From Vicinamibacteria bacterium (lineage in GTDB: Bacteria; Acidobacteriota; Vicinamibacteria; Marinacidobacterales; Marinacidobacteraceae), in contig OY729431.1 of NCBI GenBank assembly GCA_963422395.1, forward strand, positions 2,496,001 to 2,560,000: a stretch of DNA of 64,000 nucleotides. Reading direction: 5' to 3'. Shown one piece after another: positions 28,542-46,775 of this stretch. Under the pieces are notes generated by a model, which saw nothing but the letters and a program-made list of their open reading frames with translations, made no database searches and was not told the origin of the DNA. Position 1 is the first letter of the stretch. The number at the start of each line of letters is the position of its first letter. The translations under genes and the position numbers were made by a program.

Positions 28542-28604
28542 ACGCTAGCACTGCCGCGGCTCTATATAGATAGCTTCGACATAGGGATAGGATGGAAAGG
28601 GAGC

Positions 28605-29612: not shown

Positions 29613-29673
29613 CTGCGCAGGGGACCGGCAGCCTGCACGGCCGCCCCTCGCGGCGCCGCCGCCGGGCGCGCCG

Positions 29674-31032: not shown

Positions 31033-31333
31033 GTCAGGGTCTCCTCAGGATCTCCGGGAAGCGCACCGACCAGCGAGCACCGCGAACCGGAGAGGCCCCG
31101 GACGCTATCCGCTCGCGAGCCGAGCCGTCAATGGCCACTCGGGGGCTGCGCCGGGGGAGCTTCGGACAGGCGGTCGCAGGGGAGCGGACCGAGGCCCCAC
31201 GGAAAGCTGCTCTTCCCGCCTATAGAAGAGGATGTTGCGCTTGCTTCGCAGGGGCTCGATGGGTGTCCCCGCATGGATGACGATTTTTGTCCAGGTGATC
31301 GAGTATCCTGTCTTGCTTCAGACCCTCTCTGCG

Positions 31334-33586
31334 ATGCCTTCTCGATCTGATCACTATTTCGCGCACAGCGCCCCCTCCGAAAACCCGTCCTCGTGGCACC
31401 GGCTGGACGACCACCTCCGGCACACCGGAGACCGCGCCGCCGGCTTCCTCGAACGGGTCGGGCTCGCCCACTTCGGTCGGGCCGCCGGGCTCCTCCATGA
31501 CCTCGGCAAGTACACCGAGAAGTTCCAGCAGAGGCTCCGCGGCGGCCCGCGCGTGAATCATTCGACAGCCGGAGCCAAAATCGCGTGCGAACGCTATCCA
31601 GGCATCATCGGAAAAATGCTGGCATTCGGTGTTGCCGGCCATCACGCGGGACTTGCGAATGGTGTGAACGGCGAGAAAATCACTGCCCTCGCCGATCGGT
31701 TGCGCGAAAACACCCCCGAACTCGACCCGTTATGGAGCCAGGAAATACAACTCCCGCCGCTTGGTCCACCGCAGATCCAGAGCCGCAGTCGGGAGAACGC
31801 CGGATTTTCCGGGTCGTTCCTGATCCGCCTGCTGTTCTCGGCCCTGGTGGACGCAGACTATCTCGATACCGAGGCCTATTACGCAAGAATCGAGAAAACG
31901 AGTCCGAGTCGCGGAGGCCACCCCTCACTCGGAATACTTCGCGACCGCCTCGATGCCCACCTCGAAGGGCTCACCGCGCGGGCCTCGGCCAGCGAAGTGA
32001 ACGCGCTCCGCCGCGAAGTGCTGCACCACGCCAGAAAACGGGCAGTGGACACGCCCGGCCTCTTCACTCTCACGGTACCTACCGGCGGCGGCAAGACCCT
32101 CACTTCACTGTCGTTCGCCCTCCACCACGCCGTGCACCACGGGCTCGACCGGATCCTCTATGTCATCCCGTACATGAACATCATCGAACAGACGGCCGCT
32201 GTTTTCCGCGATGTCCTGCAAGACGACGAATCCGAGGGGCCGCACTTCGTGATCGAGCATCACAGCACCTTCGACGAGCAGCGAGTCGAGAAACGTTCCG
32301 GTAAAGAGAAACTCCGTCTCGCGATGGAGAATTGGGACGCTCCCATCGTGGTCACCACCGCCGTCCAGTTCTTCGAGAGCCTTTTCTCGAACCGCCCGTC
32401 CCGCTGCCGAAAACTGCACAACATCGCTGGCAGCGTCGTCGTCCTAGATGAGGCGCAGACTCTTCCCCTCGAATTCCTGCGCCCCTGCGTCGCCGCGATG
32501 GATGAGCTGGCGCGGAATTGGCGCGCCACCGTCGTCCTCTGCAGTGCCACGCAGCCGGCGCTGCGCGAGGAGAGCGGCTTCTGTGGCGGATTGCGCGAAG
32601 TGCGTGAACTCGCACCCCAACCGACTCGGCTCCAGCGAAGCCTAAAGCGAACTCGTATCCACCAAAAAGGCCCGATGGAGGACTCCGAGATCACCGAACG
32701 ATTGCGTGGAACGCCGCAGGCACTTTGCATCGTCAACACGCGGGCCCACGCACGGGCTCTGTACGAAGCAATCGAAGATCAGGATGGGGCCACGCACCTC
32801 ACCACTTCGATGTGCGCCCGTCACCGTCGGGAGATTCTGGAAGAAGTCCGCTCCCGGCTGACGATCGGTGAACCGATTCGGTTGATCGCCACCTCACTGG
32901 TCGAAGCCGGGGTGGACCTGGATTTTCCGGTCGTTTGGCGTGAGGAAGCAGGCCTCGAATCCATCATCCAGGCGGCAGGACGATGCAATCGGGAAGGGAA
33001 AGCGCCGTCCGGAGATGTGATCGTGTTCCGTTCGCAAGCCGGTGGTCGAGGATTGCCCGAGATACGGAAGGCCGCAGACGCTGCGCGCCAGGTCCTCCGG
33101 AAGCACCAGGATCCCATGTCTCTGCCCGCCATCCAGGAGTATTTCCAGACGCGCTACTGGATCGAAGGAGATAATGCCTTGGACACCAAGGGGATCCTTC
33201 CCATGCTCCGTGAACGGAAAAGGAGTCTCGACTTTCCTTTCGAAACGATCTCTCGTGCGTTCTGCCTGATCGAAACACCCATGGCCCCGGTGATCGTCCC
33301 CTACAGAGGCCGAGAGGGGAAAGACAGAACCGCAGACCGCCTGATCGCCGCTCTCGAGCATGAAGAGCGCCCCGGCTGGCTGGCGCGTAGTCTGCAGCCG
33401 TACACGGTCCCCGTTCCGCTGCTCGGCCGGAAATCTCTACTGGACTCCAGGGCCGCCCGGATCATCCGGGAGGCCGATTTCGACGAACAGTTCGTCGTCC
33501 TCGACAACCGAGACATCTATCGGGCGGACATCGGCCTCACCTGGGACGATCCAAGCTTTCACAGCGTCGAGGGGCTGATCTGTTGA
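31334..33586 (+). CDS. cas3: Cas3 HD nuclease-helicase (type I-C)
   Basis: YFAHS..WHRLDDHL, LLHDLGKY, SALVDADYLDT, PTGGGKT, DEAQ, IQAAGRCNREG. Confidence 0.97.
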   Translation: MPSRSDHYFAHSAPSENPSSWHRLDDHLRHTGDRAAGFLERVGLAHFGRAAGLLHDLGKYTEKFQQRLRGGPRVNHSTAGAKIACERYPGIIGKMLAFGVAGHHAGLANGVNGEKITALADRLRENTPELDPLWSQEIQLPPLGPPQIQSRSRENAGFSGSFLIRLLFSALVDADYLDTEAYYARIEKTSPSRGGHPSLGILRDRLDAHLEGLTARASASEVNALRREVLHHARKRAVDTPGLFTLTVPTGGGKTLTSLSFALHHAVHHGLDRILYVIPYMNIIEQTAAVFRDVLQDDESEGPHFVIEHHSTFDEQRVEKRSGKEKLRLAMENWDAPIVVTTAVQFFESLFSNRPSRCRKLHNIAGSVVVLDEAQTLPLEFLRPCVAAMDELARNWRATVVLCSATQPALREESGFCGGLREVRELAPQPTRLQRSLKRTRIHQKGPMEDSEITERLRGTPQALCIVNTRAHARALYEAIEDQDGATHLTTSMCARHRREILEEVRSRLTIGEPIRLIATSLVEAGVDLDFPVVWREEAGLESIIQAAGRCNREGKAPSGDVIVFRSQAGGRGLPEIRKAADAARQVLRKHQDPMSLPAIQEYFQTRYWIEGDNALDTKGILPMLRERKRSLDFPFETISRAFCLIETPMAPVIVPYRGREGKDRTADRLIAALEHEERPGWLARSLQPYTVPVPLLGRKSLLDSRAARIIREADFDEQFVVLDNRDIYRADIGLTWDDPSFHSVEGLIC

Positions 33587-33723
33587 ACCGGCAGGGATCC
33601 GTTCCAACGCAGCGAGGTGGAGTTGCGGCTTCCCCGGAGACCTCCTGGAATTCGGGTTCCTCACCATGCGAACGAAAAGAGCCATCCTTCCCAGCCATGA
33701 CGGGGGCCACCCGCTCCCAACGA

Positions 33724-33805
33724 GTCGCAGCACGGGGACTGAAACGGATGGCGAGTACCGATGAGGACTGTCGTCCCCGGCTCGCCCGGGGACTCGGATC
33801 GACGG
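33724..33805 (+). ncRNA. Putative crRNA-like regulatory mini-array (degenerate repeat, 24-nt spacer, degenerate repeat)
   Basis: 33724-33745 GTCGCAGCACGGGGACTGAAAC keeps 9 of 11 nt of the repeat 3' handle. 33770-33805 GTCGTCCCCGG-CTCGC-CCGGGGACTCGGATCGAC keeps the GTC start, a stem with compensatory changes and a CGGAT tail. Confidence 0.55.
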
Positions 33806-33834
33806 AGAGTACAGAAGTTCGGGGGAGGAAGACG

Positions 33835-34030
33835 ATGCCCGACTCCACTCATGAATGGCCGGAAAGTCCTTCGGACTCTGGAGCGCCAAGGATTCGAATG
33901 CGTGCGCCGGCGGGGAAGCCACCGCATCCTTCGAACCTCTGCCAGAGGCAGCGAACGGGTGACAGTCGCCGGGAAATAAGGCGACGAGCTACGGAAGGGA
34001 ACCCCGGTGGCGGTCTCCTTCGACCTGCTA
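33835..34030 (+). pseudogene. HicA-family toxin pseudogene
   Basis: GGAGG RBS and ATG 33835 out of frame with MNGRKVLRTLERQGFECVRRRGSHRIL..VTVAGK*GDELRKGT (HicA GSH and KGT motifs; in-frame TAA at 33977-33979). Confidence 0.75.
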
Positions 34031-34130
34031 CCACCAAGAGAGCTTTCCACTGCCGCCGCCTCGACTGCAGCGTACCGGGAACGACCCCGGAGCGGCTGAT
34101 GCGGGGCGGACTTCTCGCCGGGGCGGCCTG

Positions 34131-34802
34131 ATGTCGTACGGAGCAAGACTCCATGTGTGGGGCGATTACGCATGTTTCACTCGCCCCGAGATGAAGGCCG
34201 AGCGCGTCTCCTACGACGTCATGACACCGTCGGCAGCGCGTGGAATTCTGGAAGCGATCCATTGGAAGCCGGCGATCCGGTGGATCGTGGATCGGATCCA
34301 GGTGTTGAAACGGATCCGGTTCGAAACGATTCGAAGAAACGAACTCGGAAGCAAGATTCCGGCAGGAAACATCAGCGTCGCGATGCAGCGCGGCGACACC
34401 GGAGGTCTCGCCGTCTCGATCGAAAGCGACCGGCAGCAGCGCGCCGCCACCGTACTGCGCGATGTCGCTTATCTCATCGAAGCGCACTTCATCCTCACAC
34501 CCGTTGCAAACCCAGACGATACTCCGGCGAAACACGCCGCGATGTTCCACCGGCGCGCCGCTCGAGGGCAGTGCTTCCACCGACCGTATCTGGGGACCCG
34601 CGAGTTCCCGGCCCACTTCGCCCCGGTCCCGGATCCGCCGCCATCATCCTCCCTACCGACCGATCAGTGTGATCGTGATCTAGGCTGGATGCTGCACGAC
34701 CTCGACTACGCGAATGCCGCGTCGCCCAGATTCTTCCGCGCAACGCTCCGGAATGGCGTGGTGCATGTCCCGCCGCTTGATTCAGAGGAGGTCAAGGGAT
34801 GA
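34131..34802 (+). CDS. cas5: Cas5c (Cas5d)
   Basis: VWGDYACFTRPEMKAERVSYDVMTPSAARG, RRNE, GQCFHRPYLGTREF, DLGWMLHD. Confidence 0.97.
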   Translation: MSYGARLHVWGDYACFTRPEMKAERVSYDVMTPSAARGILEAIHWKPAIRWIVDRIQVLKRIRFETIRRNELGSKIPAGNISVAMQRGDTGGLAVSIESDRQQRAATVLRDVAYLIEAHFILTPVANPDDTPAKHAAMFHRRAARGQCFHRPYLGTREFPAHFAPVPDPPPSSSLPTDQCDRDLGWMLHDLDYANAASPRFFRATLRNGVVHVPPLDSEEVKG

Positions 34803-36568
34803 GCATCCTCCAAGCACTCATCCAGCGCTATGAGCGACAGGCAGCACGCGACCAGGCGCCGAAGTACGGCTTTTCGGAGCAGAAAATTTCCTATGCAATA
34901 GTAATCGATCGGAGCGGTCAGGCCATCGACACGATCGATCTGAGGGATACGAGCGGGAAGAAGCCGCGGCCCAGCAAACGCGAAGTGCCGAATCCCGTAG
35001 TCCGTACCGCCAAAATCCAACCCCAATTCCTGTGGGACAAGACTGCCTATGCCCTTGGAGTCAAGAAAGCCCAAACAGGTTCCGCAGTCCCCGCCGAACG
35101 GGGAGAGTACGATGCTTTCGTTTCCTGCCATCGGAAACTCCTCTCCTGTTCCGAAGATGATGGGCTCCAGGCATTTCTCGCCTTCCTCGATAACTGGCGG
35201 CCCGATCGCTACAGTGACCTCCGGAACAGCGACGACATGTTGGACACCAATGTCGTTTTTCGTTTCGAAGCCGATTCCAAATCGTTCTTGCACGACCGCC
35301 CGGCGGCGCGGGAAATCTGGGTGCGACTTCTGACAGGAAACGAGACCGAGCGACATCTGTGCCTGGTGACCGGCGAGCAACTCTCGATAGCCCGGGTGCA
35401 CTCCAAGATCAAGGGTGTCCGGGGCGCCCAGACTTCCGGGGCATCGATCGTCTCCTTCAACCAGAAGGCATTCAATTCTTTCGGAAAGGAACAGGGCGGG
35501 AACGCGCCGATCTCGGATCGCGCTGCTTTCGCATACACCACCTCACTGAACTCCCTTCTCGCCCGAGGCAGCCGCAATCGAATCCAGATCGGCGATACGA
35601 CGACTGTGTTCTGGGCAGACTCCGGAGACGATCCAGAGAGTGCCGAAGCCGCCGATAGCCTGTTCTCTGCGCTCATGGGCGCGCCGCCGACCGACGAAGA
35701 AGAGGCAGCAGTGGTCCGGGACAAAGTCGAAAAATTTCAAGCCGGGCGTCCGGTCGAATCTGTCGAGCCGGGCGTTCAGGAGGACACGCGCTTCTTCGTT
35801 CTTGGTCTCGCACCCAATGCGGCGCGCCTTTCCGTCCGATTCTGGCATGAAGACACGATCGGCCGCATGGGAGAACGGCTTCGAGAGCACTGGGGCGATC
35901 TTCATATCGAACCGGTCCCTTGGCACACGCCCCCGGATGCTTGGCGGCTCCTGCGCGAGACCGCCATTCAGGGCAAGTCGGAGAAAATACCGCCAGTGCT
36001 CAGCGGCACGCTCATGAGCGCGATCCTCCGGGGCAGCAGATACCCTCGATCGTTGTTGGCCAATGTATTGCTGCGGATGCGCTCCGACGGCAACATCAAT
36101 GGGTTGCGTGCTGCGATCTGCAAGGCATGTCTCGCCCGCGACCATCGCTTCGGTCTCGAAGAGGAGGCACTCCCCGTGAGTCTAAACCCCGACGAAAAAA
36201 ACCCGGCCTATCGCCTCGGCAGACTGTTCGCCATCTATGAAGGCGTTCAGCAGGCCGCGATGGGACGACGGGTGAACGTGACGATCAAGGATCAGTTCTA
36301 CGGATCCGCGTCCGCCACCCCGGCCGCGGTCTTTCCGGTAATCAACCGGAAGGCCGCCCACCACCTCGGATCCCTTCGCAAGGACAAAGGGGGGTTGGCC
36401 GTCTGGTACGAACGACACCTGGACGCGGTATTCGATGGCTTCGAGACGGCGTTCCCGCGCAGCCTCGGGATCGAGGAACAGGGCCGCTTCACCATCGGCT
36501 ATTACCACCAGCGGGCAAGCCTCAAAGGGAAGCCCGCCAACGACAGCGTCGAGACGCCGGAGGAATGA
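34799..36568 (+). CDS. cas8c: Cas8c/Csd1
   Basis: [50 protein letters not shown]. Confidence 0.96.
36176..36568 (+). CDS. cas11: Internally translated Cas11c small subunit, in frame within cas8c
   Basis: GAGGAGG at 36161-36167 then in-frame GTG at 36176 starting [19 protein letters not shown]; internal Cas11 initiation is established for type I-C. Confidence 0.75.
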
Positions 36569-37509
36569 ACATCATGTCAGCAATCCGTAACCGATACGAT
36601 TTCGTGTATCTGTTCGACATCTCCAACGGAAACCCCAACGGAGATCCCGATGCCGGAAACCTGCCCCGGCTCGATCCAGAAACCAACCAGGGTCTCGTCA
36701 CCGATGTGTGCCTCAAGCGAAAGATTCGAAATTTCGTCACGATGACGAAGGGGGGCGAACCACCGTATGGAATCTATATCGCCGAGCGTGCCGTGCTGGA
36801 GCGGCTGCAGCAGCGTGCCTGGGATGCGATCGTCCCGGACGCCAGCGACGAAGCTCGGAAAAAGTTGCCGAAAGACGAGGCAAAGGCGCGAAAACTGACC
36901 CGATGGATGTGCGACAATTTCTTCGATGTACGGACATTCGGCGCGGTGATGTCCACGAAGGGCGCCAACTGCGGCCAGGTCCGGGGGCCAGTCCAGTTCT
37001 CGTTCGGCCGATCCGTTGAACCGATCGTCCCGCTGGAGGTTTCGATCACCAGGATGGCGGCGACCACACAGAAGGACGCCGACGAGAAGGGCGATGTTCG
37101 CACGATGGGGCGCAAGTACATCGTGCCGTACGGTCTGTATCGCGCCCACGGCTTCGTCTCGGCATGCCTGGCCGGAAACGGTGCCGGGGGAACCGGCTTC
37201 TCGCAAGAAGACCTGGATCTGGTGTGGACCGCCCTCGAACAGATGTTCGATCACGACCGCTCCGCGGCAAGGGGCGAGATGACAGCCCGCCGTCTCATCA
37301 TATTCCGCCACGAGAGCACGCTCGGCAACACCGCCGCCCACCGACTCTTCGACCGCGTCCGGGTTTCGCGGATCCACGAGGAGCAGGAAGCCTCCCTCGG
37401 TGCACCTGCTTCACGGAGCCTGCCCCCGGCACGGTCGTACTCCGATTACTCCGTTGTCGTGGATGCCGAAAACCTTCCTGAAGGGATCACGATCCTGGAT
37501 CGGATCTGA
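36565..37509 (+). CDS. cas7: Cas7/Csd2
   Basis: [52 protein letters not shown]. Confidence 0.97.
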
Positions 37510-38159
37510 TGTGCGGCGAGGACACCGATGCCGCGGCGCCCATCTCCGAGAACGAACTCGTCCCGATTTCCGCTCTTCAACACCTGCTCTACTGTCCCCG
37601 GCAGTGCGCGCTGATCCATGTCGAGCGCCTGTGGATGGAGAATCGATTCACCGCCGAGGGTCGCATCCTCCACAACAAGGTCGAAAAAGCCGCTTCGGAT
37701 CGCCGTTTCGGCGTCCAAACCGAGCGCAGCGTTCCCCTGCGATCCTGGCGCCTCGGCGTCTTCGGGATCGCCGATGTGGTTGAAGTTCACGACGATGGGT
37801 GCGTATTTCTCGTGGAGTACAAGCGAGGCCGTCCCAAGCAGCATCGCGCCGATGAAGTGCAACTCTGTGCACAGGCGATCTGTCTCGAAGAGATGCTGGA
37901 TCGACAGATTCCCGGAGGTGCCTTGTTCTACGGCCGCACCCGCCGCCGGACGCCGGTCGTCTTCGATGCGGCACTCCGAGGCCTCACCGAGCGCACAGCC
38001 AGGGGCGCCCGAAAAATGATCGCAACCGGGGTCACGCCCGCTCCGATCTATGAATCCTGGAAGTGCGAACCTTGTTCGCTGAAGGTCGTCTGTAAGCCCG
38101 AAAAAATGCAGCAGACCGCCACAGTCGAATCGTGGCTGGAGGAAGCGCTCGCTGACTGA
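37509..38159 (+). CDS. cas4: Cas4
   Basis: ISALQHLLYCPRQCAL, GIADVVE, VEYKRG, QLCAQAICLEEM, C-terminal CxxCSLxxxC. Confidence 0.96.
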   Translation: MCGEDTDAAAPISENELVPISALQHLLYCPRQCALIHVERLWMENRFTAEGRILHNKVEKAASDRRFGVQTERSVPLRSWRLGVFGIADVVEVHDDGCVFLVEYKRGRPKQHRADEVQLCAQAICLEEMLDRQIPGGALFYGRTRRRTPVVFDAALRGLTERTARGARKMIATGVTPAPIYESWKCEPCSLKVVCKPEKMQQTATVESWLEEALAD

Positions 38160-38167
38160 GCACCACA

Positions 38168-39208
38168 GTGCGCCGCCATCTGAACACGCTCTATGTCACG
38201 ACCGAAGGGGCGATGCTCCACAAGGACGGAGAGAACGTCGTCGTTCGCGTCGAACGGGAAGAACGATGTCGCGTACCGTTTCACATCGTGGATGGGATCG
38301 TTTGTTTCGGCGCCGTCGGCGTCACCCCATCTCTGATCGCACACTGCGCGAAATTCGGGATAACCCTGTCTTTTCTGAGTTGGACTGGCCGATTCTCCGC
38401 TCGGGTCGAGGGGCCGGTATCGGGCAATGTGTTACTTCGACGCACTCAGTATCGGCGTGCCGACGACCCTGTAGGAACGGCCGCATTGGTGAGAAGTTTT
38501 CTGACTGGCAAACTGGTCAACCAGCGGGCTGTAATTCGGCGAGCCCTTCGTGACCATCGGTCGAAACTCACCGCGGACTTCGAACAACGACTGGTGACCT
38601 GCGAACGACGACTCACCGGCTCGATTCGGCGCGCATCGAAAGGCACCGATACAGATTCTCTGAGGGGAATCGAGGGAGAAGCGGCGCGCTCGTACTACGG
38701 CGTGTTCGAATGTCTGATTCTGCGCGACCGATCATCACTCACATTCGCTCGTCGCTCTCGCCGTCCGCCAATGGATCCGGTCAACGCATTGCTTTCCTTC
38801 CTCTACACACTGCTGGTCCACGACTGTCGCTCGGCACTCGAATCCGTGGGTCTCGATCCCGCAGTCGGCTATCTGCACCGTGATCGACCCGGACGACCAA
38901 GTCTCGCACTCGACCTGGTAGAGGAGCTCCGTCCAGTCATCGCCGACCGCCTTGCTCTGTCCATGATCAATCGGCGTCAAATTCTCCCGGGAGATTTCGA
39001 GACCGCAGTCAGCGGAGCGGTCAACATGAGCGAGAAAGCTCGCAAGGTATTACTCGTTGCCTACCAAGAACGCAAGCGTGACGAAATCACCCATCCATTC
39101 CTCGGTGAGAAGACCACTGTTGGACTCGTTCCATTCTTGCAAGCAACAATAATGGCACGCTGTCTGCGCGGAGATCTAGACGCTTATCCTCCCTTCCTCT
39201 GGAAGTAA
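38168..39208 (+). CDS. cas1: Cas1 (type I-C)
   Basis: LNTLYVTTEG, GNVLLRRTQY, LRGIEGEAA, NALLSFLY, SLALDLVEELR, YPPFLWK. Confidence 0.98.
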   Translation: MRRHLNTLYVTTEGAMLHKDGENVVVRVEREERCRVPFHIVDGIVCFGAVGVTPSLIAHCAKFGITLSFLSWTGRFSARVEGPVSGNVLLRRTQYRRADDPVGTAALVRSFLTGKLVNQRAVIRRALRDHRSKLTADFEQRLVTCERRLTGSIRRASKGTDTDSLRGIEGEAARSYYGVFECLILRDRSSLTFARRSRRPPMDPVNALLSFLYTLLVHDCRSALESVGLDPAVGYLHRDRPGRPSLALDLVEELRPVIADRLALSMINRRQILPGDFETAVSGAVNMSEKARKVLLVAYQERKRDEITHPFLGEKTTVGLVPFLQATIMARCLRGDLDAYPPFLWK

Positions 39209-39216
39209 TACAAATC

Positions 39217-39507
39217 ATGCTGATTCTGGTCACCTATGATGTTGCAACTCAGAGCAGCGAGGGGCGACGGCGCCTGCGCCGCATTGCTCGGCATTGCAAA
39301 AACTACGGGCAGCGCGTCCAGTATTCCGTCTTCGAATGTCTGGTGGACCCGGCTCAGTGGACCGCCCTTCGGGCGGCCCTCCTCGCCGAGATGGATCCTG
39401 CCGAAGACAGCCTTCGGTTCTACCGACTGGGGTCGAACTGGAGACCTCGGATCGAGCATGTGGGGGCCAAGCGATCCTACGACCCCGACGCCCCATTGGT
39501 GATGTGA
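39217..39507 (+). CDS. cas2: Cas2
   Basis: LVTYDV, GQRVQYSVFEC, DSLRFYRLG. Confidence 0.97.
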   Translation: MLILVTYDVATQSSEGRRRLRRIARHCKNYGQRVQYSVFECLVDPAQWTALRAALLAEMDPAEDSLRFYRLGSNWRPRIEHVGAKRSYDPDAPLVM

Positions 39508-39686
39508 TCGGTGCGAACCCGTAGCGGTAGCCACTGACCAAAGCTTTCGCACAATTCGAAAATCATTATATTTCAACGAATTAGACGAGCTATTCCACCC
39601 TGGTAATAGCTAGACTCCAACGGCTGGAGCAGGTTCGCACAAAGAGGCGGAATCTGCCAAGAGCCACCAGCAGATATATTCCTGCG
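39508..39686 (+). promoter_or_regulatory. CRISPR leader
   Basis: AT-richer non-coding stretch between cas2 and the first repeat, with the inverted motif GTGCGAACC...GGTTCGCAC seen in I-C leaders. Confidence 0.8.
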
Positions 39687-41735
39687 GTCGCCCCCCGCAC
39701 GGGGGGCGCGGATTGAAACTTCTGGAATCGCACATTGGAGACATTGAATGCGGTGTCGCCCCCCGCACGGGGGGCGCGGATTGAAACCGTGAGGCTGTCC
39801 AGGATCTCTCCTGCTATGTATGGTCGCCCCCCGCACGGGGGGCGCGGATTGAAACTCCTTTGCCGGCTTGCCGGCGGTTGATGTTGGAGTCGCCCCCCGC
39901 ACGGGGGGCGCGGATTGAAACATCGCAGTCCGCGCATTTCCTCGCGTCGCTCTTTGTCGCCCCCCGCACGGGGGGCGCGGATTGAAACGCACGCTGGGGC
40001 AGGAAAGCCGAAGAGCTCTATGTCGCCCCCCGCACGGGGGGCGCGGATTGAAACTCATCGAACCGGGGGCAAGCCCCCCAAAGGAAAAAGTCGCCCCCCG
40101 CACGGGGGGCGCGGATTGAAACATCGTGTTTTTCCTTTGCCGGCGGGCTGCCGGCGTCGCCCCCCGCACGGGGGGCGCGGATTGAAACTGATCAGGATTG
40201 ACAATCGCTAGCCGACTGCGCGACGTCGCCCCCCGCACGGGGGGCGCGGATTGAAACGAGTGAACGGAACGCCATTCGCGTAGGCAGCCGAGTCGCCCCC
40301 CGCACGGGGGGCGCGGATTGAAACTCGTCTGTACGGCGTGCTGGGCAGCCCGTAGGGCAGCGTCGCCCCCCGCACGGGGGGCGCGGATTGAAACTCGTGT
40401 ACGGGCTGGTCAGCCCGCCCAGCCCAGCGTCGCCCCCCGCACGGGGGGCGCGGATTGAAACAGTGGGGTGCCGCCGCCGCGCAGTCCGCGCAAAGTCGCC
40501 CCCCGCACGGGGGGCGCGGATTGAAACCCTCTCTGGTCGCGATCATCGGCAGTCTGCCGCGTCGCCCCCCGCACGGGGGGCGCGGATTGAAACCCCACTT
40601 ACTGCCACGCTGCCCTACCCCATGCGTCGCCCCCCGCACGGGGGGCGCGGATTGAAACCATATCCGCATCGCATTCCGCGCAGGCCTTCACGGTCGCCCC
40701 CCGCACGGGGGGCGCGGATTGAAACTATTCCATCCGGACTTGGTCCGACACCGCCTTGAGTCGCCCCCCGCACGGGGGGCGCGGATTGAAACCACTTCCT
40801 GCTGACTGCGGCAGTCGGCATCTTGGTCGCCCCCCGCACGGGGGGCGCGGATTGAAACTTTGTCTCCTCCTCGATTTCCGCCCATCGGCGAAGGACGTCG
40901 CCCCCCGCACGGGGGGCGCGGATTGAAACTCCTTTGGCGGCCGGCGGCCGCCGTGTTGTTTGAGTCGCCCCCCGCACGGGGGGCGCGGATTGAAACGCTA
41001 GGCGGGCGTTGGATTTGCGCCTCCCGCCGCCGGTCGCCCCCCGCACGGGGGGCGCGGATTGAAACGTTGGATGCGGCCCGGACCAAAGCTCCTTGCATGC
41101 GTCGCCCCCCGCACGGGGGGCGCGGATTGAAACCTCCTTTCGGCGGCCGGCGGCCTCCGTGTTTGAGTCGCCCCCCGCACGGGGGGCGCGGATTGAAACG
41201 GTTGCGATTCGTGGAGTATGTCTGCTCGAATCGGGTCGCCCCCCGCACGGGGGGCGCGGATTGAAACCCTTCATCGCAACCGAACACCGCCCCCGGCGGC
41301 GTCGCCCCCCGCACGGGGGGCGCGGATTGAAACCTTTGGCGCCGGGTTAGGCGCCGGTTTGATTCGCGTCGCCCCCCGCACGGGGGGCGCGGATTGAAAC
41401 CAAGTGCACCTTGCCGGAGTGCTTTGAGGACCTGGGTCGCCCCCCGCACGGGGGGCGCGGATTGAAACTTCCTGGATTCGCGGCGATGATGCCGTGTTTC
41501 CTGTCGCCCCCCGCACGGGGGGCGCGGATTGAAACCGCGCGCGTGTCTGTCCCTAGTGGGGACGAGCTGCGTCGCCCCCCGCACGGGGGGCGCGGATTGA
41601 AACGCCAAAGCATCGCTGACGCTCGCGAAGCCCGCGGTCGCCCCCCGCACGGAGGGCGCGGATTGAAACTCCATGGATTGGCGCCGAGGAACCGGTGTTC
41701 CCGTCGCCCCCCGCGCGGGGGGCGCGGATTGAAAC
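39687..41735 (+). CRISPR. Type I-C CRISPR array: 31 repeats of 33 nt (GTCGCCCCCCGCACGGGGGGCGCGGATTGAAAC) and 30 spacers of ~32-38 nt
   Basis: Counted directly. The last two repeats (41637, 41703) each carry one substitution, marking the trailer end. Confidence 0.99.
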
Positions 41736-42204: not shown

Positions 42205-42849
42205 TCAGGCGGCTTCGGCCTGATTCTGCTCTTCCACTTCGGCGCCGAGGGCGGCCGACAGGGTGAAGGTCTCGTGCGCAGCACGCAGTGCGTCGTCCGG
42301 AGTCGGGAGAGTCTCCCCGACCCGGTCGATGCCGCTCCGGGCCTGCTGCCAGCACTCCCGCTGCCGGCTCCCATAGGGATCGAAGTAGCGAAGGTTGCCG
42401 GCGAACTCCGGACGGGCGGCCTCCAGGGCGCGGCGGATGAAACGGTTGCCGTTCATCGAGCCTTCGACCACATAGAAGGCGCCGAGCGCGGTGCCGGCGG
42501 ACCACTCGGCCCCTCCGAGCCGCTCCACGAAAGCGGCGACCGCTGCGGAAGGCTTCGGCGCCTCACCATCCGAGAGGCCCTCGAGGTCCTGCGCCAGGCG
42601 GGAAGCGTGGGCGGCAGCCGCCCGGCGGAACGCGCTCCATTCGCCTGACTCCTGCGGGAGCCGGGAATGGAGGGCGCTCAAGAGTTCCAGCATCCCCGAC
42701 TGGAAGGCGGCGAAGGCCGGGCGGGACACCTCGCCGCGGACGAGAGAGCGCTGGAACGCCTGGTTTTCGGCGGCGGCGTGGTCCTCGGCGGTGGCCTGCT
42801 TCAGCAGATCGGCGAGGGGAGTCACGGAGGCGCCGTTCGTGCTCGACAT
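42205..42849 (-). CDS. Biliverdin-producing heme oxygenase-like protein
   Basis: LKQATAEDHAAAE (proximal His), LAQDL, YVVEGSMNGN, YFDPYG, AHETF. Confidence 0.85.
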   Translation of the reverse strand: MSSTNGASVTPLADLLKQATAEDHAAAENQAFQRSLVRGEVSRPAFAAFQSGMLELLSALHSRLPQESGEWSAFRRAAAAHASRLAQDLEGLSDGEAPKPSAAVAAFVERLGGAEWSAGTALGAFYVVEGSMNGNRFIRRALEAARPEFAGNLRYFDPYGSRQRECWQQARSGIDRVGETLPTPDDALRAAHETFTLSAALGAEVEEQNQAEAA

Positions 42850-43007
42850 CAGGAGAGACGGAAAGCGGACCACGCCGCGGCGGCGGCGATCCCGAGCCAG
42901 ACGAGACCCTTGACGAGGAAGAAGAGGAAGGCGGCGCCCGCAGCCCGCTTGGCGATCCGAGAGTTACGGAACCTGCCCCACATTCCGGTACCGGATTTCG
43001 ATTCCAT
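42849..43007 (-). CDS. Small single-TM protein (FLFFLVKGLVWL)
   Basis: Basic N-region plus one hydrophobic helix; TGA overlaps the heme oxygenase ATG. Confidence 0.6.
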   Translation of the reverse strand: MESKSGTGMWGRFRNSRIAKRAAGAAFLFFLVKGLVWLGIAAAAAWSAFRLS

Positions 43008-43110
43008 GTCCGGGCAGGCTAGTCGCGCACGGCTCACGGGTCAACGCCAGCTCGGCGCGCGAGCCTGGCTGCCGACATCCTGCGGCCCGCCCTGGGTCAA
43101 GCGCCCTGGG

Positions 43111-44700
43111 TCAACGAACGCGGCGGAACTCGGTGTCGCCGATCCGGAGACCGGCAGGCTTCCCGGCCGCGTCCAGCCGGAAGCTGATCAGCGCCTCGCC
43201 GCGCCAGCGGGCGTCCCAGGCGACCCGGAAAGTGTCGAAGTGCCAATGACTGAGCGGTCCTCGGAGGCCCGGACCGTAATCGAGACGGAGGGCCTCGCCG
43301 TCCAGACGCACCACCGCAGTGCCGCCGAGTTCGTGCTCGTAGGTCCCACCGTAGGCGGCGGAATCGAGGCTCGGTGCCGTGCCGAGGATCCGGCGGGCGC
43401 GCATCTCTTCGAGGGCGGCCGCCTGCGCTTCGGCGAGGCCGTCGTAGAGCGCGAGGAGTTCGGCGCTCCAGTCACGCTCCGGCGATCCGAGCAGCGCGTC
43501 GAACGCGCGCAGCATCAGCGCGTGGCGGACCTCCACATGATCGCGGTTCCCGAGGACGAAGACCCCGATCTTCTCGTCGCGGACGAGACCCGCGATCGCC
43601 ACCATGCCGTCGATGCTCCCGGTGTGGAAATCCACTGCCTGCCCGCCGTAGTCCTGCTGGAACCAGCCGAGCCCGTAGGTCACCCAATGGGGCTTCGTGA
43701 GCCGCTCCGTCGGATAGAAGCCCGTCCGGTCCACGAGAGACTGCGGCCGGAACATCTCCTCGACCACCGCTTCGCTCAGAATCCGGGTTCCATCGGCAGC
43801 GACTCCGGAGGCGAGGAGCATCCGGAGCCAGAGCGACATCTCCCGGACCGAACTCCACACCGATCCGGCGGCGGCAACGGAGTCCACCGAGGCGTTTTCG
43901 ATGACCACCGTCTCGCCGTCCACGAGGTGGTGCGGCGAGGCGACATTGGCCCGGCGGCGGGCCAGGGAAAGCAGCGGCGCGGTCCGCTCCATGCCGAGCC
44001 GGTCGAAGATGCGGGAGTCCACGAAGTCGTGCCACGGCATTCCCGAGACCCGCTTCACGACCTCGCCGGCGGTCGCGTAGAGCACATTCTGGTACACGAA
44101 TCCGGAGCGCATCGAGTAGGCCGGCTCGACCTGTCGGAGCCGTTCGAGCATCTCCTCCATGTCGGTCTCCTGTCCGTACCAGAAGACATCGGTATTCGGG
44201 AGCCCGCCGCGATGGGTCAGCAGATCGCGCACCGTCATCTCTCGGCTGACCCAGGCGTCCCGAACCGCGAACTCGGGGAGGTGCCGGCGCACCGGATCGT
44301 CCCAGGCGAGCTTCCCCTCGTCCACGAGCATGCCGACCGCGGCGGCGGTCATCGCCTTCGTGGTGGAGCCGATCGCGAAGAGGGTGTCGGGGTTCACCGG
44401 GTTCGGGCTTCCGAGTTCCAGCACTCCGTAGCCGCGGGCGAAGAGGAGTTCGTCTCCGCGCACCACGGCGACCGCGAGCCCGGTGGCGCCCCAGTCCGAA
44501 ACCGCCCGGGCCGCATAGTCGTGGAAGGCCTCGGCATCGAAAGCAGCACTGGATTCATGGACAGCACCGGATTCTCGTCCGGTTTCGCTTTCTGGGGGCG
44601 GGGAGGCGGGCTTCCTCGCGCCCGGAACCGCCTCGGCGGCGGGCGCGGACCCGAGGAAGATCGCCAGCAGCAGCCGGGGGAACGACGGGAAGCGGATCAC
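43111..44700 (-). CDS. Serine hydrolase (beta-lactamase class C-like) with DUF3471-like C-terminus
   Basis: FAIGSTTK (SxxK), DLLTHRGG, YQN, HTGSIDG. Confidence 0.9.
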   Translation of the reverse strand: MIRFPSFPRLLLAIFLGSAPAAEAVPGARKPASPPPESETGRESGAVHESSAAFDAEAFHDYAARAVSDWGATGLAVAVVRGDELLFARGYGVLELGSPNPVNPDTLFAIGSTTKAMTAAAVGMLVDEGKLAWDDPVRRHLPEFAVRDAWVSREMTVRDLLTHRGGLPNTDVFWYGQETDMEEMLERLRQVEPAYSMRSGFVYQNVLYATAGEVVKRVSGMPWHDFVDSRIFDRLGMERTAPLLSLARRRANVASPHHLVDGETVVIENASVDSVAAAGSVWSSVREMSLWLRMLLASGVAADGTRILSEAVVEEMFRPQSLVDRTGFYPTERLTKPHWVTYGLGWFQQDYGGQAVDFHTGSIDGMVAIAGLVRDEKIGVFVLGNRDHVEVRHALMLRAFDALLGSPERDWSAELLALYDGLAEAQAAALEEMRARRILGTAPSLDSAAYGGTYEHELGGTAVVRLDGEALRLDYGPGLRGPLSHWHFDTFRVAWDARWRGEALISFRLDAAGKPAGLRIGDTEFRRVR

Positions 44701-45546
44701 GGGGAGCAGCCCTCCTCTCCCGGCAACAGCGGGCGGGCAGCGAGCTGGTAGAGCGTCCCCCGATGGTTCCAGCGGGTCGCGTGGTTCGCGGTGCTGAAGA
44801 TCTCGAGAAGGCGAGCGGCGGCGACGCCTTCGTGGACGCTGCAGGAAATCCGGGATTCGCCGCCGGTCGGCGGGTCGGGCAATGGCCAGGGAAGCTCGTT
44901 CGCCACCGTCGGATCGGCCGGATGCGGGTTCGAGATCATGTACACCTGCAGCCGGTCGCCCTCATAGGGGGCCGCAGCGGCCGTGAGGTCGCCGAGCCGC
45001 TGGACGAGTGCCTCGATGGGCGCGGCCCGCGGGTCCGTGTGTCGGACGGCGCCGAACGCCTCGATGGAGACCCGGTGGACGCCGCCGCGCTCTCGCAGGA
45101 CCACTTGGAGGTTCGGTGCGTCGGCGATGATCGGCCCGGTGCTCGGCTGGGATGTGGAGGATTTCCACCTCGGGAAGCACGGTGGCCGCCGCCGCCGCGG
45201 CCACCGAGTCGAGCTCGGCCGCCGCAAGCTGCGTCATCAGGATGTTCGGGAGGATCGGCCCCGGATAGATCTCCAGGATCGGACCTTCCGAGTAGAGGAC
45301 TCCAGAGACGGTCAGCGCATGCAGCGGAGGACGACCGAGTTGGTACTCGATGGGGATGAATCCGCCCGTCTTTTGCACTTCGAGGAAGATCACGCCGGGA
45401 TCTTCGGGCAGATCGAACCCCAGGGGACCCGGGACCGGCTTCGGCGGGAGCAGGGTCGCGGGTCCAGGATGGTCGTCCGGTCCGCAGCCGGAGGCGGCGA
45501 TCATCACCGGCAGCAATGCGGCAACGATCGGCAGCAAACCGGTCAT
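44697..45546 (-). pseudogene. Lipoprotein gene split by one frameshift near 45150
   Basis: 5' ORF has a lipobox (AASGC) and TGGFIP..IYPGPILPN; the protein continues in another frame as IADAP....YQLAARPLLPGE. Confidence 0.65.
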
Positions 45547-45674: not shown

Positions 45675-46775
45675 TCAGAAACCGATCCCATCACCGATCG
45701 AATCCCTGATCACTCGAGCGAGCCCGTAGAGCCCCGCCGCGAGCAGGCCTCCGATCGCGGCGAGACGGCCTCCGCTGCGAAGAGCGCTCGATCCGGAGAA
45801 CAGGCTCGCCGCGGCTCCCGAGCAGAAGAGCGCCAGTACCGCGAGCGCCGACGCGCCGAGGAGGGCCGTCCCCTCCGGGAGCAGGAGAAGCGGGACCAGC
45901 GGAATCGCAGCGCCGGCGCCGAAGCTTGCGAAGGAAGCGAGCGCCGACGCCCACGGTGAGCCCAGGTCGTCCGGATTCAGGCCCAGTTCCTCCCGGGTGA
46001 GCACATCGAGCGCTTTCGCCGGGTCGTCGATCAGCCGCTTGCCGAGCGTCCGCGCCTGTTCCCGTTCGAAGCCGCGCGCCTCGAAGATGAGCGCCAGCTC
46101 CTCGGCCTCGTCGTCCGGATAGAGGCGCAGTTCTTCTTCTTCGAGCGCGATCTGCCGCTCGAACAATTCGACCCGGGAGCGCGCTGCGAAGTATTCCCCG
46201 GCGGCCATGGACACCGCACCGGCGAGCATCCCGAAGGCGCCGACGAGCAGCGCGGTGTGCGGTTCGGCACCGAGCCCACCGACCGCGAGCACGAGCGCGG
46301 TATTCGACACCAGCCCGTCGCCCAAGCCGAAGACCGCGGCGTGGAGGGCCACCACCCCGCGGGTGTACAGGTGGCGCTGTTCTTCGCCGAGCAGGTGATG
46401 GCGGGGTCCGGTCCGCTCGGGGGCGTCGGCCTCCCGTTCCAGCAGCGCTTCGAGGTTCGACGGCGCCGCGCGGTACAGCGAGAGCCCCCGCACCTTGAGC
46501 GCGGCGAGCGCGGGAAGGAGCGAGCGCGGGCCGATCCAGCGGACGAGAGCCCCCACCAGCCGCACCCGGAAAGAGGCCTCGTAAGGGCCCGGTGCGGGAT
46601 CGCCTGCTTCTGCGATCGCCCGCACCCACGCCTGGCTCTGCTCCAGCGCGTCCTCCGAGAGCGCTTCGAAGAGGCGCTGCTTCTCTCCGGTCTCCACTCC
46701 GGCGAGCACCCGGTAGAGCCAGGCCGCCTGGACCTCGCTCTCCCAGCTCTCCCGGAGCGACGCGCGGTCAGCCAT
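45675..46775 (-). CDS. VIT1/CCC1 family Fe/Mn transporter with N-terminal ferritin-like segment
   Basis: AAVFGLGDGLVSN, AGAVSMAAGEY, ELALIFEARG, REELGLNPDDLGSPW. Confidence 0.9.
   Translation of the reverse strand: MADRASLRESWESEVQAAWLYRVLAGVETGEKQRLFEALSEDALEQSQAWVRAIAEAGDPAPGPYEASFRVRLVGALVRWIGPRSLLPALAALKVRGLSLYRAAPSNLEALLEREADAPERTGPRHHLLGEEQRHLYTRGVVALHAAVFGLGDGLVSNTALVLAVGGLGAEPHTALLVGAFGMLAGAVSMAAGEYFAARSRVELFERQIALEEEELRLYPDDEAEELALIFEARGFEREQARTLGKRLIDDPAKALDVLTREELGLNPDDLGSPWASALASFASFGAGAAIPLVPLLLLPEGTALLGASALAVLALFCSGAAASLFSGSSALRSGGRLAAIGGLLAAGLYGLARVIRDSIGDGIGF

What the first reader, a model, noticed from the sequence alone, without database searches (positions are those of the whole stretch)
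39856..41367. At least six spacers hit different copies of one AC-rich / GC-hairpin / Shine-Dalgarno cassette
Seen, written on the common strand: S3 (39856-39888 rc) ACATCAACC-GCCGG CAAG CCGGC-AAAGGA; S6 (40055-40089) TCGAACC-GGGGG CAAG CCCCC-CAAAGGAAAAA; S7 (40123-40155 rc) GCCGGC AGCCC GCCGGC-AAAGGAAAAACACGAT; S19 (40930-40963 rc) TCAAACAACAC-GGCGGCC GCC GGCCGCC-AAAGGA; S22 (41134-41166 rc) TCAAACACGGAGGCC GCC GGCCGCCG-AAAGGAG; S25 (41334-41367 rc) TCAAACC-GGCGCC TAACCC GGCGCC-AAAG. Stems differ but stay paired. Adding the expected TTC PAM completes AAAGGAGAA for S3 and S19 and an ATG for S7. S8 contains TTGACA, and S17 and S18 also show hairpin plus purine-rich RBS-like runs. Inference: the targets are a repeated 5'-UTR module of strongly expressed (early or anti-defence) genes in a phage or MGE family. 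The PAM would fall inside the RBS, making escape costly and possibly letting Cascade silence these genes.
Basis: partly seen in the sequence, partly recalled or inferred. Interest (0 to 1): 0.8.

Follow-up and report, generated by a model that had tools for sequence, protein, structure and literature searches.

The report
CRISPR spacers sampling one hairpin–RBS module
An ordinary type I-C CRISPR array holds six or seven spacers copied from different versions of one short non-coding hairpin-plus-ribosome-binding-site module of an unidentified mobile element, which is far more than chance gives but cannot yet be traced to a target.

Summary
Window 39687-41735 is a type I-C array of 31 repeats and 30 spacers, downstream of cas3-cas5-cas8c-cas7-cas4-cas1-cas2. 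S24 looks like a seventh copy.

The shared module is an AC-rich box TC(A/G)A(A/C)C, then a GC-only hairpin with 5-7 bp stems that differ between copies but stay paired, then AAAGGA(G/A). In S7 it continues ...AAAACACGAT.

It is not chance and not PAM density:
- 4 of the 14 hairpin+AAAGGA sites in the whole 2.9 Mb genome lie in the array.
- 4 of 30 spacers are cassette-like, against 75 of 108,132 TTC-flanked host 34-mers.
- 0 of 259 spacers in 17 other I-C arrays are cassette-like.

Copies differ by 1-nt indels, so the module is non-coding.

No protospacer turned up in any collection searched. Position upstream of start codons, copy number per element and the TTC PAM therefore remain inferred. 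"Early or anti-defence genes" and Cascade silencing have no support.

Best reading (about 0.5): a multi-copy gene-start module of an unsampled phage or plasmid family, over-sampled through an acquisition hot spot or through selection.

The parts
31232..33586 (+). cas3 (784 aa; HD nuclease plus DEAD/ResIII helicase plus Cas3 C-terminal domain)
   Evidence: Pfam
34131..34802 (+). cas5 (Cas5d type)
   Evidence: PF09704, E 8e-46
34799..36568 (+). cas8c (Csd1), the type I-C signature gene
   Evidence: PF09709, E 1e-182
36565..37509 (+). cas7 (Csd2)
   Evidence: PF05107, E 3e-99
37509..38159 (+). cas4
   Evidence: PF01930, E 3e-20
38168..39208 (+). cas1
   Evidence: PF01867, E 2e-101
39217..39507 (+). 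cas2
   Evidence: PF09827, E 3e-26
39508..39686 (+). Leader; an AT-rich stretch lies around 39555-39600
   Evidence: Sequence. It lies between cas2 and the first repeat.
39687..41735 (+). CRISPR array: 31 repeats of 33 nt (GTCGCC...GGATTGAAAC) and 30 spacers of 32-38 nt. The last two repeats each carry one substitution. It is the only array in the genome.
   Evidence: Rfam CRISPR-DR9 matches all 31 repeats on the + strand, below the gathering score.
39856..39888 (-). S3, a cassette copy: ATCAACC / GCCGG-CAAG-CCGGC / AAAGGA
40055..40089 (+). S6, a cassette copy in the opposite spacer orientation: ATCGAACC / GGGGG-CAAG-CCCCC / C AAAGGAAAAA
40123..40155 (-). S7, a cassette copy reaching downstream: GCCGGC-AGCCC-GCCGGC / AAAGGAAAAACACGAT
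40930..40963 (-). S19, a cassette copy: TCAAACAACAC / GGCGGCC-GCC-GGCCGCC / AAAGGA
41134..41166 (-). S22, a close variant of S19 (one 3-nt indel, one 1-nt indel, one substitution that leaves an A.G mismatch in the stem), ending AAAGGAG
   Evidence: (88% to the S19 unit)
41268..41300 (+). S24, a probable seventh copy in the same orientation as S6: (CC TTC) ATCGCAACCGAACA / CCGCC-CCC-GGCGG / C. The spacer ends before the purine run.
   Evidence: Assignment rests on resemblance and is inferred.
41334..41367 (-). S25, a cassette copy reaching upstream: GCGAATCAAACC / GGCGCC-TAACCC-GGCGCC / AAAG
41469..41502 (+). S27, paired with S30 (41670-41702). Same site and same register in two diverged variants; 9 differences, no indel, mostly at every third base (SWIRGDDAVFP against PWIGAEEPVF). 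This is a coding target and serves as the contrast to the cassette.
   Evidence: my own reading of the sequences

Best explanation
This is a canonical, apparently intact type I-C CRISPR-Cas locus. Six, and probably seven, of its 30 spacers were taken from homologous copies of one short non-coding module of foreign DNA.

The module reads, in order: an AC-rich box (A)TC(A/G)A(A/C)C; 0-5 nt; a GC-only hairpin with a 5-7 bp stem and a 3-6 nt loop, whose stem sequences differ between copies but remain paired; 0-1 nt; AAAGGA(G/A)(A/G)A; about 8 nt; ATG.

The most likely reading is an intercistronic or 5'-UTR gene-start module made of a stem-loop followed by a Shine-Dalgarno site. It would occur in several paralogous copies, and in variants, in an unsampled phage or plasmid family that infects this poorly sampled lineage.

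For five of the seven spacers the inferred 5'-TTC PAM is the complement of a GAA lying just beyond the spacer end. For four of them that GAA lies in the purine run; for S7 it overlaps the inferred start codon. The protospacer then covers the hairpin and the AC box on the antisense strand. The other two spacers (S6, S24) use a TTC just upstream of the AC box on the sense strand.

Seven of 30 spacers is more than even a module in front of every gene would give under even PAM use. A second factor is therefore inferred. It could be a sequence- or structure-dependent acquisition hot spot, as has been described for type I-C. It could instead be retention of spacers whose PAM and seed lie in a constrained regulatory element.

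Shown: the locus type, the module, its enrichment, and its non-coding, structure-conserved nature. Inferred: the PAM, the gene-start position, the copy number per element, the kind of host element, and the reason for over-sampling.
For: - Locus: all seven I-C cas genes are present. The repeat ends in ATTGAAAC, on the same strand as the cas genes, with the degenerate repeats at the far end.
- The module is real and specific to this array.
- It is foreign. Nothing in the host genome matches a spacer over more than about 23 nt. The 10 host hairpin+AAAGGA sites outside the array lack the AC box.
- It is non-coding. S3 and S6 differ by two 1-nt indels, and S19 and S22 by a 3-nt and a 1-nt indel. 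The coding-type pair S27/S30 has no indel and differs mainly at third positions (read).
- Structure is conserved. Five different stems are all perfectly paired.
- Gene-start reading. S7 runs AAAGGAAAAACACGAT(+GAA gives ATG). Among 14 unrelated contigs where the loose pattern coincides with a perfect hairpin, 9 have an ORF of at least 30 aa starting 3-13 nt after AAAGGA. In all 4 chance IMG/VR hits to the S7 tail the ATG is followed by an ORF-like start.
- Precedent for repeated start-associated modules. Cluster K mycobacteriophages carry 11-19 copies of a 13-bp Shine-Dalgarno-containing repeat just upstream of start codons, and about half have inverted repeats immediately upstream (PMC3203893, passages read).
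- Precedent for a type I-C hot spot. One site took 16.7% of acquisitions, depended on its internal sequence, and its authors speculated about ssDNA secondary structure at the PAM-proximal end (PMC5602111, passages read).
- Different stems sit next to each other in the array (S3, S6, S7; then S19, S22, S24, S25). This fits several copies being sampled in the same episodes, but only weakly.
Against: - No protospacer was found in any collection searched, so nothing shows the module in front of genes or in several copies in one element.
It gave 0 of 55 genomes in the order and 1 of 401 in the class.
- On the opposite strand the hairpin is followed by a moderately T-rich run (GGTTTGAT and the like), and two loops read CUUG there. 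A weak terminator reading is therefore not excluded.
- Only one copy (S7) reaches the presumed start codon, and its ATG depends on the assumed PAM.
- No stop codon of a preceding gene is visible in the 12-19 nt upstream of the stem in S3, S24 or S25.
- The S27/S30 and S10/S11 pairs show that this array does re-sample the same site from diverged variants. That favours the one-locus rival.
- Hairpins in general are not favoured in other I-C arrays (47 of 259 spacers, about the 16.6% background). A general hairpin hot spot is therefore not supported.
Confidence: 0.5

Rival explanations
1. There is one locus in many variants. The cassette is a single orthologous intergenic site, for example upstream of one conserved gene, in a family of diverged phages or plasmids. 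The array took a spacer from that same site again and again, through priming by older, partly matching spacers or through a strong hot spot. The different stems record divergence of the element under a pairing constraint.
For: - The array demonstrably re-samples identical sites from diverged variants: S27/S30 in the same register, and S19/S22 at the same PAM give or take 1 nt. S10/S11 begin with the same bases and align only with 2-nt and 3-nt indels.
- Type I-C priming and extreme single-site hot spots are documented (PMC5602111, passages read).
- No contig with several copies was found.
Against: - It would need at least five separately diverged variants, all sampled at one site of about 60 bp, using three different PAM positions on both strands. 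Other loci appear at most twice.
- The stems differ at nearly every position while the flanks are kept. That is more than in the coding pair S27/S30 (about 73% identical).
- S3, S6 and S7 lie close together in the array and have three different stems.
Confidence: 0.25
2. The hairpin is not a gene-start element. It is an intrinsic terminator read on the opposite strand, or another DNA- or RNA-level structured site, and the AAAGGA run only looks like a Shine-Dalgarno site.
For: - On the opposite strand the stem is followed by GGTTTGAT, GGTTGATG, GGTTCGAT, GTGTTGTT or TGTTTGA, which is 3-5 T in about 8 nt.
- Two loops read CUUG on that strand, which I recall as a stable tetraloop class. The sequences are read.
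- Stems are all Watson-Crick, so there are no G.U pairs to tell the strands apart.
Against: - The T-run is short and interrupted, and its sequence (TTGA) is conserved rather than merely T-rich.
- The same strand is also T-rich upstream of the stem, where a terminator usually has an A-tract.
- AAAGGA abuts the stem in every copy that reaches it.
- S7 continues with a spacing to ATG that suits translation initiation.
- Unrelated contigs with this arrangement mostly show an ORF start right after it (9 of 14).
Confidence: 0.12
3. The spacers come from generic junctions plus an adaptation bias. They derive from unrelated 'hairpin then RBS' intergenic junctions, which are common in phages. The junctions are over-sampled because GGAGAA supplies the TTC PAM and the I-C adaptation complex favours PAM-proximal hairpins.
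For: - The hairpin / AAAGGAGAA / ATG arrangement occurs sporadically in unrelated viral and metagenomic contigs.
- An internal-sequence-dependent I-C hot spot is known.
- The PAM-proximal 8 nt are at least 7/8 pyrimidine in 6 of 30 spacers, against 3.9% of the background.
Against: - 0 of 259 spacers in 17 other I-C arrays with the same or nearly the same repeat are cassette-like, and their hairpin share (18%) equals the background.
- The shared AC box (5 of 5 informative copies, against 0.8% of the background) shows that the copies are related.
- PAM-only expectation is at most 0.24% per spacer.
Confidence: 0.08

Closest known systems
Type I-C (Dvulg/Csd) CRISPR-Cas systems
   Same: The gene set and order are cas3-cas5-cas8c-cas7-cas4-cas1-cas2-leader-array. 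The 33-nt repeat has a GC hairpin and ends in ATTGAAAC. Spacers are 32-38 nt. The same repeat core occurs in arrays of Verrucomicrobiota, Kiritimatiellia and Proteobacteria genomes and in the same class.
   Different: Nothing about the machinery differs, apart from an unassigned 182-aa ORF between cas3 and cas5. What is unusual is the spacer content.
Start-associated sequences (SAS) and extended SAS of Cluster K mycobacteriophages (PMC3203893, passages read)
   Same: A repeated short module contains the Shine-Dalgarno site just upstream of start codons. Half of the copies have an inverted repeat with a variable spacer immediately upstream. There are many copies per genome, the host has high GC content, and the function is unknown.
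   Different: SAS is a fixed 13-bp sequence and the ESAS arms have a conserved 17-bp consensus, which fits protein binding. Here the stem sequences vary freely and only the pairing is kept, which fits a structural hairpin. There is no sequence similarity. Copy number and position cannot be checked here.
Sequence-dependent acquisition hot spot in Legionella type I-C priming (PMC5602111, passages read)
   Same: It is a type I-C system with a TTC PAM. One site was hugely over-sampled for reasons internal to the protospacer, and the authors suspected PAM-proximal secondary structure.
   Different: That hot spot is one coding site on a plasmid in a laboratory assay. Here a family of related non-coding sites sits in a natural array, and other I-C arrays show no general hairpin preference.
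Intercistronic stem-loops and intrinsic terminators
   Same: A GC-rich perfect hairpin lies between A/T-richer flanks, right before the next ribosome-binding site. Unrelated contigs show the same layout.
   Different: No U-tract follows the stem on the AAAGGA strand. A conserved AC-rich box precedes it.

Membership tests
Type I-C CRISPR-Cas | cas8c (Csd1) together with cas5d and cas7 (Csd2) | tested here: met
   PF09709 (E 1e-182), PF09704 and PF05107
Type I-C CRISPR-Cas | cas3 with HD nuclease and helicase domains; the adaptation genes cas4, cas1 and cas2 | tested here: met
Type I-C CRISPR-Cas | Repeat of about 32-33 nt with a stem-loop, ending in ATTGAAAC | tested here: met
   Rfam CRISPR-DR9 matches on the + strand at 25-33 bits, below the gathering score of 45.
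Type I-C CRISPR-Cas | 5'-TTC PAM next to the protospacers | tested here: inconclusive
   No protospacer was found. The only support comes from comparing copies: S25 ends at AAAG where S6 and S7 continue GAA, and S24 has TTC before ATCG where S6 needs its PAM.
SAS/ESAS start-associated repeats (Cluster K phages) | The conserved 13-bp sequence 5'-GGGATAGGAGCCC | tested here: not met
   The cassette flank is AAAGGA(G/A). There is no resemblance beyond GGAG.
SAS/ESAS start-associated repeats (Cluster K phages) | Position a few bases upstream of start codons; 11-19 copies per genome | not testable with these tools
   No target genome was found. Only S7 reaches a possible ATG.
SAS/ESAS start-associated repeats (Cluster K phages) | Upstream inverted repeats with a conserved 17-bp consensus | tested here: not met
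   Stems are 5-7 bp and differ in sequence between copies.
Intrinsic (rho-independent) terminator | GC-rich hairpin followed directly by a U-tract | tested here: inconclusive
   The hairpin is present. No T-run follows it on the AAAGGA strand. The opposite strand has 3-5 T in about 8 nt, interrupted (read).
Integron attC site | Complementary RYYYAAC and GTTRRRY core sites flanking the palindrome (recalled consensus) | tested here: not met
   ATCAAAC fits 6 of 7 positions of RYYYAAC. The 3' flank is AAAGGA, not GTTRRRY, and the flanks are not complementary.
Solitary CRISPR-repeat mimics (RNA anti-CRISPRs; PMC10651486, search listing only) | Close resemblance to the host repeat | tested here: not met
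   On the opposite strand the hairpin plus GGTTTGAT loosely recalls the repeat hairpin plus GGATTGAAAC. In the Rfam scan at E <= 1, CRISPR-DR9 matched only the 31 true repeats.

The most novel reading that the evidence does not exclude
The array records an unsampled virus or plasmid family, probably of an Acidobacteriota-like lineage, whose genes are headed by a multi-copy translation-start module: AC box, variable but always paired GC stem-loop, Shine-Dalgarno site. The type I-C system preferentially keeps or acquires spacers whose PAM and seed lie inside that module. This could be because a PAM-proximal hairpin makes an adaptation hot spot, or because escape mutations there cost the element translation of many genes. 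If true, it would be a natural case of CRISPR immunity focusing on a repeated, escape-constrained regulatory element.
Probability: 0.3. Interest if true: 0.65.

Novelty: new variant of a known kind. Interest (0 to 1): 0.45.

Why it matters
Spacer content is usually treated as a near-random sample of PAM-flanked sites. Here about a fifth of an array points at one structured non-coding module.

If the module is multi-copy and precedes genes, three things follow. The array reveals a regulatory element of an unknown mobile-element family before that family has been sequenced. It gives a natural test of whether immunity concentrates on targets that are costly to mutate. It also offers a concrete substrate for the unexplained sequence- or structure-dependent acquisition hot spots of type I-C systems.

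If the spacers instead come from one locus in many variants, the array is a record of a long chase at a single site. Either way the claim becomes testable as soon as one target genome is found.

Tried and rejected
Searches for protospacers, all negative:
- blastn-short of the 30 spacers against the host's own genome. The longest match outside the array was 23 nt with one mismatch.
- The whole array against INPHARED phages: 3 records, best E 0.05.
- S25 and S3 alone against phages: only E = 4 matches inside coding genes.
- The whole array against PLSDB plasmids: 9 records. I read all of them as other I-C arrays, because the long matches run at about 65-74% identity.
- IMG/VR, 8 of 8 scans used:
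  - S19/S22 degenerate pattern: 0.
  - Seeds of S7, S3, S25 and S6: 0 each.
  - S27/S30 wobble pattern: 0.
  - Generic cassette pattern: 14 loci, each a single copy and unrelated.
  - S7 tail pattern: 4 chance hits.
- Metagenome contigs, 2 of 2 scans used. The S19/S22 pattern gave 0. No spacer matched them beyond 21 nt.
- BLAST of the array in 20 relatives, in all 28 family genomes and in 401 class genomes. The only hits were other arrays, or short matches that straddle a spacer-repeat boundary. Only 2-14 first-look candidates were scored per genome, so sensitivity was limited.
- The generic pattern in 55 genomes of the order gave 0, and in 401 of the class gave 1 single match.
- The look-up of sequencing runs: none was listed.

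Ideas rejected:
- A coding origin in a K/P/A/E-rich peptide. Open frames exist, but the copies differ by 1-nt indels.
- Integron attC, REP or HUH-transposase ends, and a CRISPR-repeat mimic (see Membership tests).
- The spacers being more folded in general (they are not).
- Self-targeting. A host site at window 15706-15727 matches 17 of the first 18 nt of S22 but diverges after that.

Not done:
- A covariance model of the cassette.
- Naming the organism. Only a weak Acidobacteriota hint came out.

Literature:
- The repeat string occurs in 0 papers.
- Searches were read as listings only. No listed title concerns spacers concentrated on a hairpin-RBS module. That is not proof that none exists.
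- Supplementary tables of PMC5602111 were not seen.

One search was a loose host scan with an over-broad motif. It gave 767 uninformative rows and I used it only for the duplication noted in passing.
Full report
**What is there.** Window 39687-41735 is a CRISPR array of 31 copies of a 33-nt repeat that ends in GGATTGAAAC, with 30 spacers of 32-38 nt. Directly upstream on the same strand lie cas3 (HD plus helicase), cas5, cas8c/Csd1, cas7, cas4, cas1 and cas2 (Pfam). A 179-nt leader follows them. The two substituted repeats are at the far end, and Rfam's CRISPR-DR9 model matches the repeats on the + strand, though below its gathering score. This is a standard type I-C locus transcribed on the + strand. 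It is the only array in the 2,908,270-bp, 68.4% GC genome. By established knowledge of type I-C, a spacer as written on the + strand should be preceded in its target by 5'-TTC (canonical TTC PAM: PMC5602111, passages read; PMC8406640, abstract in a search listing only).

**The observation.** On a common strand they share three parts: an AC-rich box (ATCAACC, ATCGAACC, TCAAACAACAC, TCAAACAC, ATCAAACC), a hairpin made only of G and C, and AAAGGA.
- The stems are GCCGG, GGGGG, GCCGGC, GGCGGCC and GGCGCC, all perfectly paired. In S22 the stem is the S19 stem with one A.G mismatch.
- S7 lacks the upstream part but continues AAAGGAAAAACACGAT.
- I add S24 (41268-41300) as a probable seventh copy. It has the orientation of S6 and reads CC-TTC-ATCGCAACCGAACA / CCGCC-CCC-GGCGG / C. 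The spacer ends before the purine run.

**Is it more than chance?** Yes.
- In the whole host genome 530 AAAGGA sites exist on both strands. Only 14 have a perfect hairpin of at least 5 bp ending within 2 nt upstream, and 4 of those 14 are spacers S3, S6, S7 and S19.
- Among 108,132 TTC-flanked host 34-mers, 75 are cassette-like on the PAM side, against 4 of 30 spacers.
- In viral and metagenomic loci that had been selected for containing such a pattern, the share is only 0.18-0.24%. That gives P(at least 4 of 30) below 1e-6.
- It is also not a habit of type I-C adaptation. In 13 arrays with the same repeat core from other phyla, 0 of 114 spacers are cassette-like. In 4 arrays of the same class with a nearly identical repeat, 0 of 145 are. 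Against 5 of 28 parsed own spacers, Fisher p = 6e-6.
- The AC box lies 0-5 nt before the stem in all 5 copies that reach that far, against 40 of 4,908 host GC hairpins. The motif was defined post hoc.

A result against over-reading: the spacers as a set do not fold better than host sequence (mean -9.5 against -9.1 kcal/mol, p = 0.26). Perfect stems of at least 5 bp are commoner, though: 13 of 30, against 16.6% of host 34-mers and 47 of 259 spacers in other arrays (p = 0.003).

**What kind of sequence is it?**
- It is foreign. No spacer matches the host beyond about 23 nt, and the ten host hairpin+AAAGGA sites outside the array lack the AC box.
- It is non-coding. S3 and S6 differ by two separate 1-nt indels, and S19 and S22 by a 3-nt and a 1-nt indel. 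By contrast S27 and S30, another related pair, align without indels. Their nine differences fall mostly at every third base, giving SWIRGDDAVFP against PWIGAEEPVF, which is the signature of a coding target.
- It is structure-constrained. Stems differ at almost every position yet stay paired. All pairs are Watson-Crick, so the strand on which the structure matters cannot be read off.

**PAM.** No protospacer is available, but the copies cross-check each other.
- S25 ends at AAAG where S6 and S7 continue GAA.
- S3 and S19 end at AAAGGA where S22 continues G.
- S24 contains TTC directly before ATCG, where S6 needs its upstream PAM.

A TTC PAM is therefore consistent for all seven. For S3, S19, S22 and S25 the inferred GAA lies in the purine run. 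For S7 it overlaps the inferred start codon, where GAT+GAA gives ATG. This is inference, not observation.

**Search for the target.** Every route open to me was negative. I searched the own genome, cultured phages, plasmids, IMG/VR (8 scans), metagenome contigs (2 scans), 28 family, 55 order and 401 class genomes, and the SRA index (none listed). Call numbers are under Tried and rejected.

The family holds only 28 species genomes, and the window's genus only this one. An ADOP permease and atlas neighbours hint at Acidobacteriota. A lack of reference phages for such a lineage is unsurprising.

The generic pattern did teach one thing. Hairpin, then AAAGGAGAA, then a start codon 3-13 nt later occurs sporadically in unrelated contigs. 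It was seen in 9 of the 14 pattern hits that have a perfect hairpin, out of 110 unique hits. Some of those follow a stop codon of the preceding gene. That is the ordinary place of such a layout: an intercistronic junction.

**Explanations.**
- I put about 0.5 on a multi-copy gene-start module of an unsampled mobile-element family. The closest precedent is the start-associated sequences of Cluster K mycobacteriophages: 11-19 copies per genome of a Shine-Dalgarno-containing repeat, half with inverted repeats just upstream, function unknown (PMC3203893). There, however, the arms are conserved in sequence. Here only the pairing is kept.
- Even a module before every gene would give only a few per cent of PAM sites. 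This is my estimate, from about one TTC per 54 nt of host sequence counting both strands. Seven of 30 therefore needs a second factor.
  - One candidate is an acquisition hot spot. In Legionella type I-C, one site took 16.7% of acquisitions for reasons internal to the protospacer, and secondary structure near the PAM-proximal end was suspected (PMC5602111).
  - The other candidate is selection for spacers whose PAM and seed sit in a constrained element.
- The main rival (0.25) is a single locus re-sampled from many diverged variants. The S27/S30 and S19/S22 pairs, and probably S10/S11, show that this array does this.
- An opposite-strand terminator or other structured site gets 0.12. The stem is followed there by GGTTTGAT-like runs, and two loops read CUUG.
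- Unrelated junctions plus a general adaptation bias gets 0.08. The 0 of 259 control and the shared AC box speak against it.

Nothing supports "strongly expressed, early or anti-defence genes". Silencing by Cascade is not the expected outcome where cas3 is full-length. "Escape is costly" is plausible but untested.

**Verdict.** The locus itself is ordinary. The spacer content is unusual and statistically solid, but its biological meaning cannot be settled without a target genome. I rate interest at 0.45, as a new variant of known kinds (repeated start-associated modules; type I-C acquisition hot spots).

Noticed in passing
window 41469-41502 (S27) and 41670-41702 (S30); 40325-40361 (S10) and 40395-40428 (S11); 39922-39955 (S4) and 40462-40494 (S12): Other spacers also come in related pairs. 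S27/S30 are the same site in two diverged coding variants. S10/S11 are the same non-coding hairpin region, differing by 2-nt and 3-nt indels. S4/S12 share a 13-nt CGCAGTCCGCGCA core in different flanks. The host has a tandem 9-nt repeat with the same core at genome position 46,690-46,710.
   Followed up: partly
window 33583-34131 (+): A 182-aa ORF with a TTG start lies between cas3 and cas5, where type I-C loci normally have no gene. It has no Pfam or NCBIfam match. It may be spurious or an unknown accessory gene.
   Followed up: partly
genome C1 about 1-36,000 and about 2,872,300-2,908,270 (outside the window): Sites at 637, 4659, 7651, 10719, 19386 and 26647 recur at a nearly constant offset of about 2,872,300, with at least one base difference. 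Either the ends of the circular contig overlap by about 36 kb, or there is a real large duplication.
   Followed up: no
L026-L042 (genome contigs) and L161-L169: The same 23-nt repeat core occurs in arrays of Verrucomicrobiota, Kiritimatiellia, and Alpha- and Gammaproteobacteria genomes. Nearly identical repeats occur in one family of the window's own class, including one very large array (matches spanning more than 12 kb at the start of a contig), but not in its own family. This suggests horizontal spread of this I-C variant.
   Followed up: partly
window 40189-40224 (S8), 40793-40825 (S17), 40859-40896 (S18), 40528-40560 (S13), 40726-40759 (S16): Several further spacers look intergenic. S8 holds TTGACA. 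S13, S16, S17 and S18 have a short hairpin, and on the reverse strand a purine-rich run at the PAM end (AGAGAGG, GATGGAATA, AGCAGGAAGTG, GAGGAGGAGACAAA). In 6 of 30 spacers the PAM-proximal 8 nt are at least 7/8 pyrimidine, against 3.9% of the background.
   Followed up: partly
window 15706-15727: A host coding-region palindrome, GGCGGCCGGCCGCC followed by GAAGGGAG, matches 17 of the first 18 nt of S22 and 18 of 20 nt of S19. It diverges after that and is not a credible self-target.
   Followed up: yes
window 29407-31350 (+), 42667-44751 (+), 28545-29768 (-): Three large ORFs flanking the CRISPR locus (647, 694 and 407 aa) have no Pfam match at E <= 0.05. In a 68% GC genome long spurious ORFs are common, so they may not be genes.
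   Followed up: no
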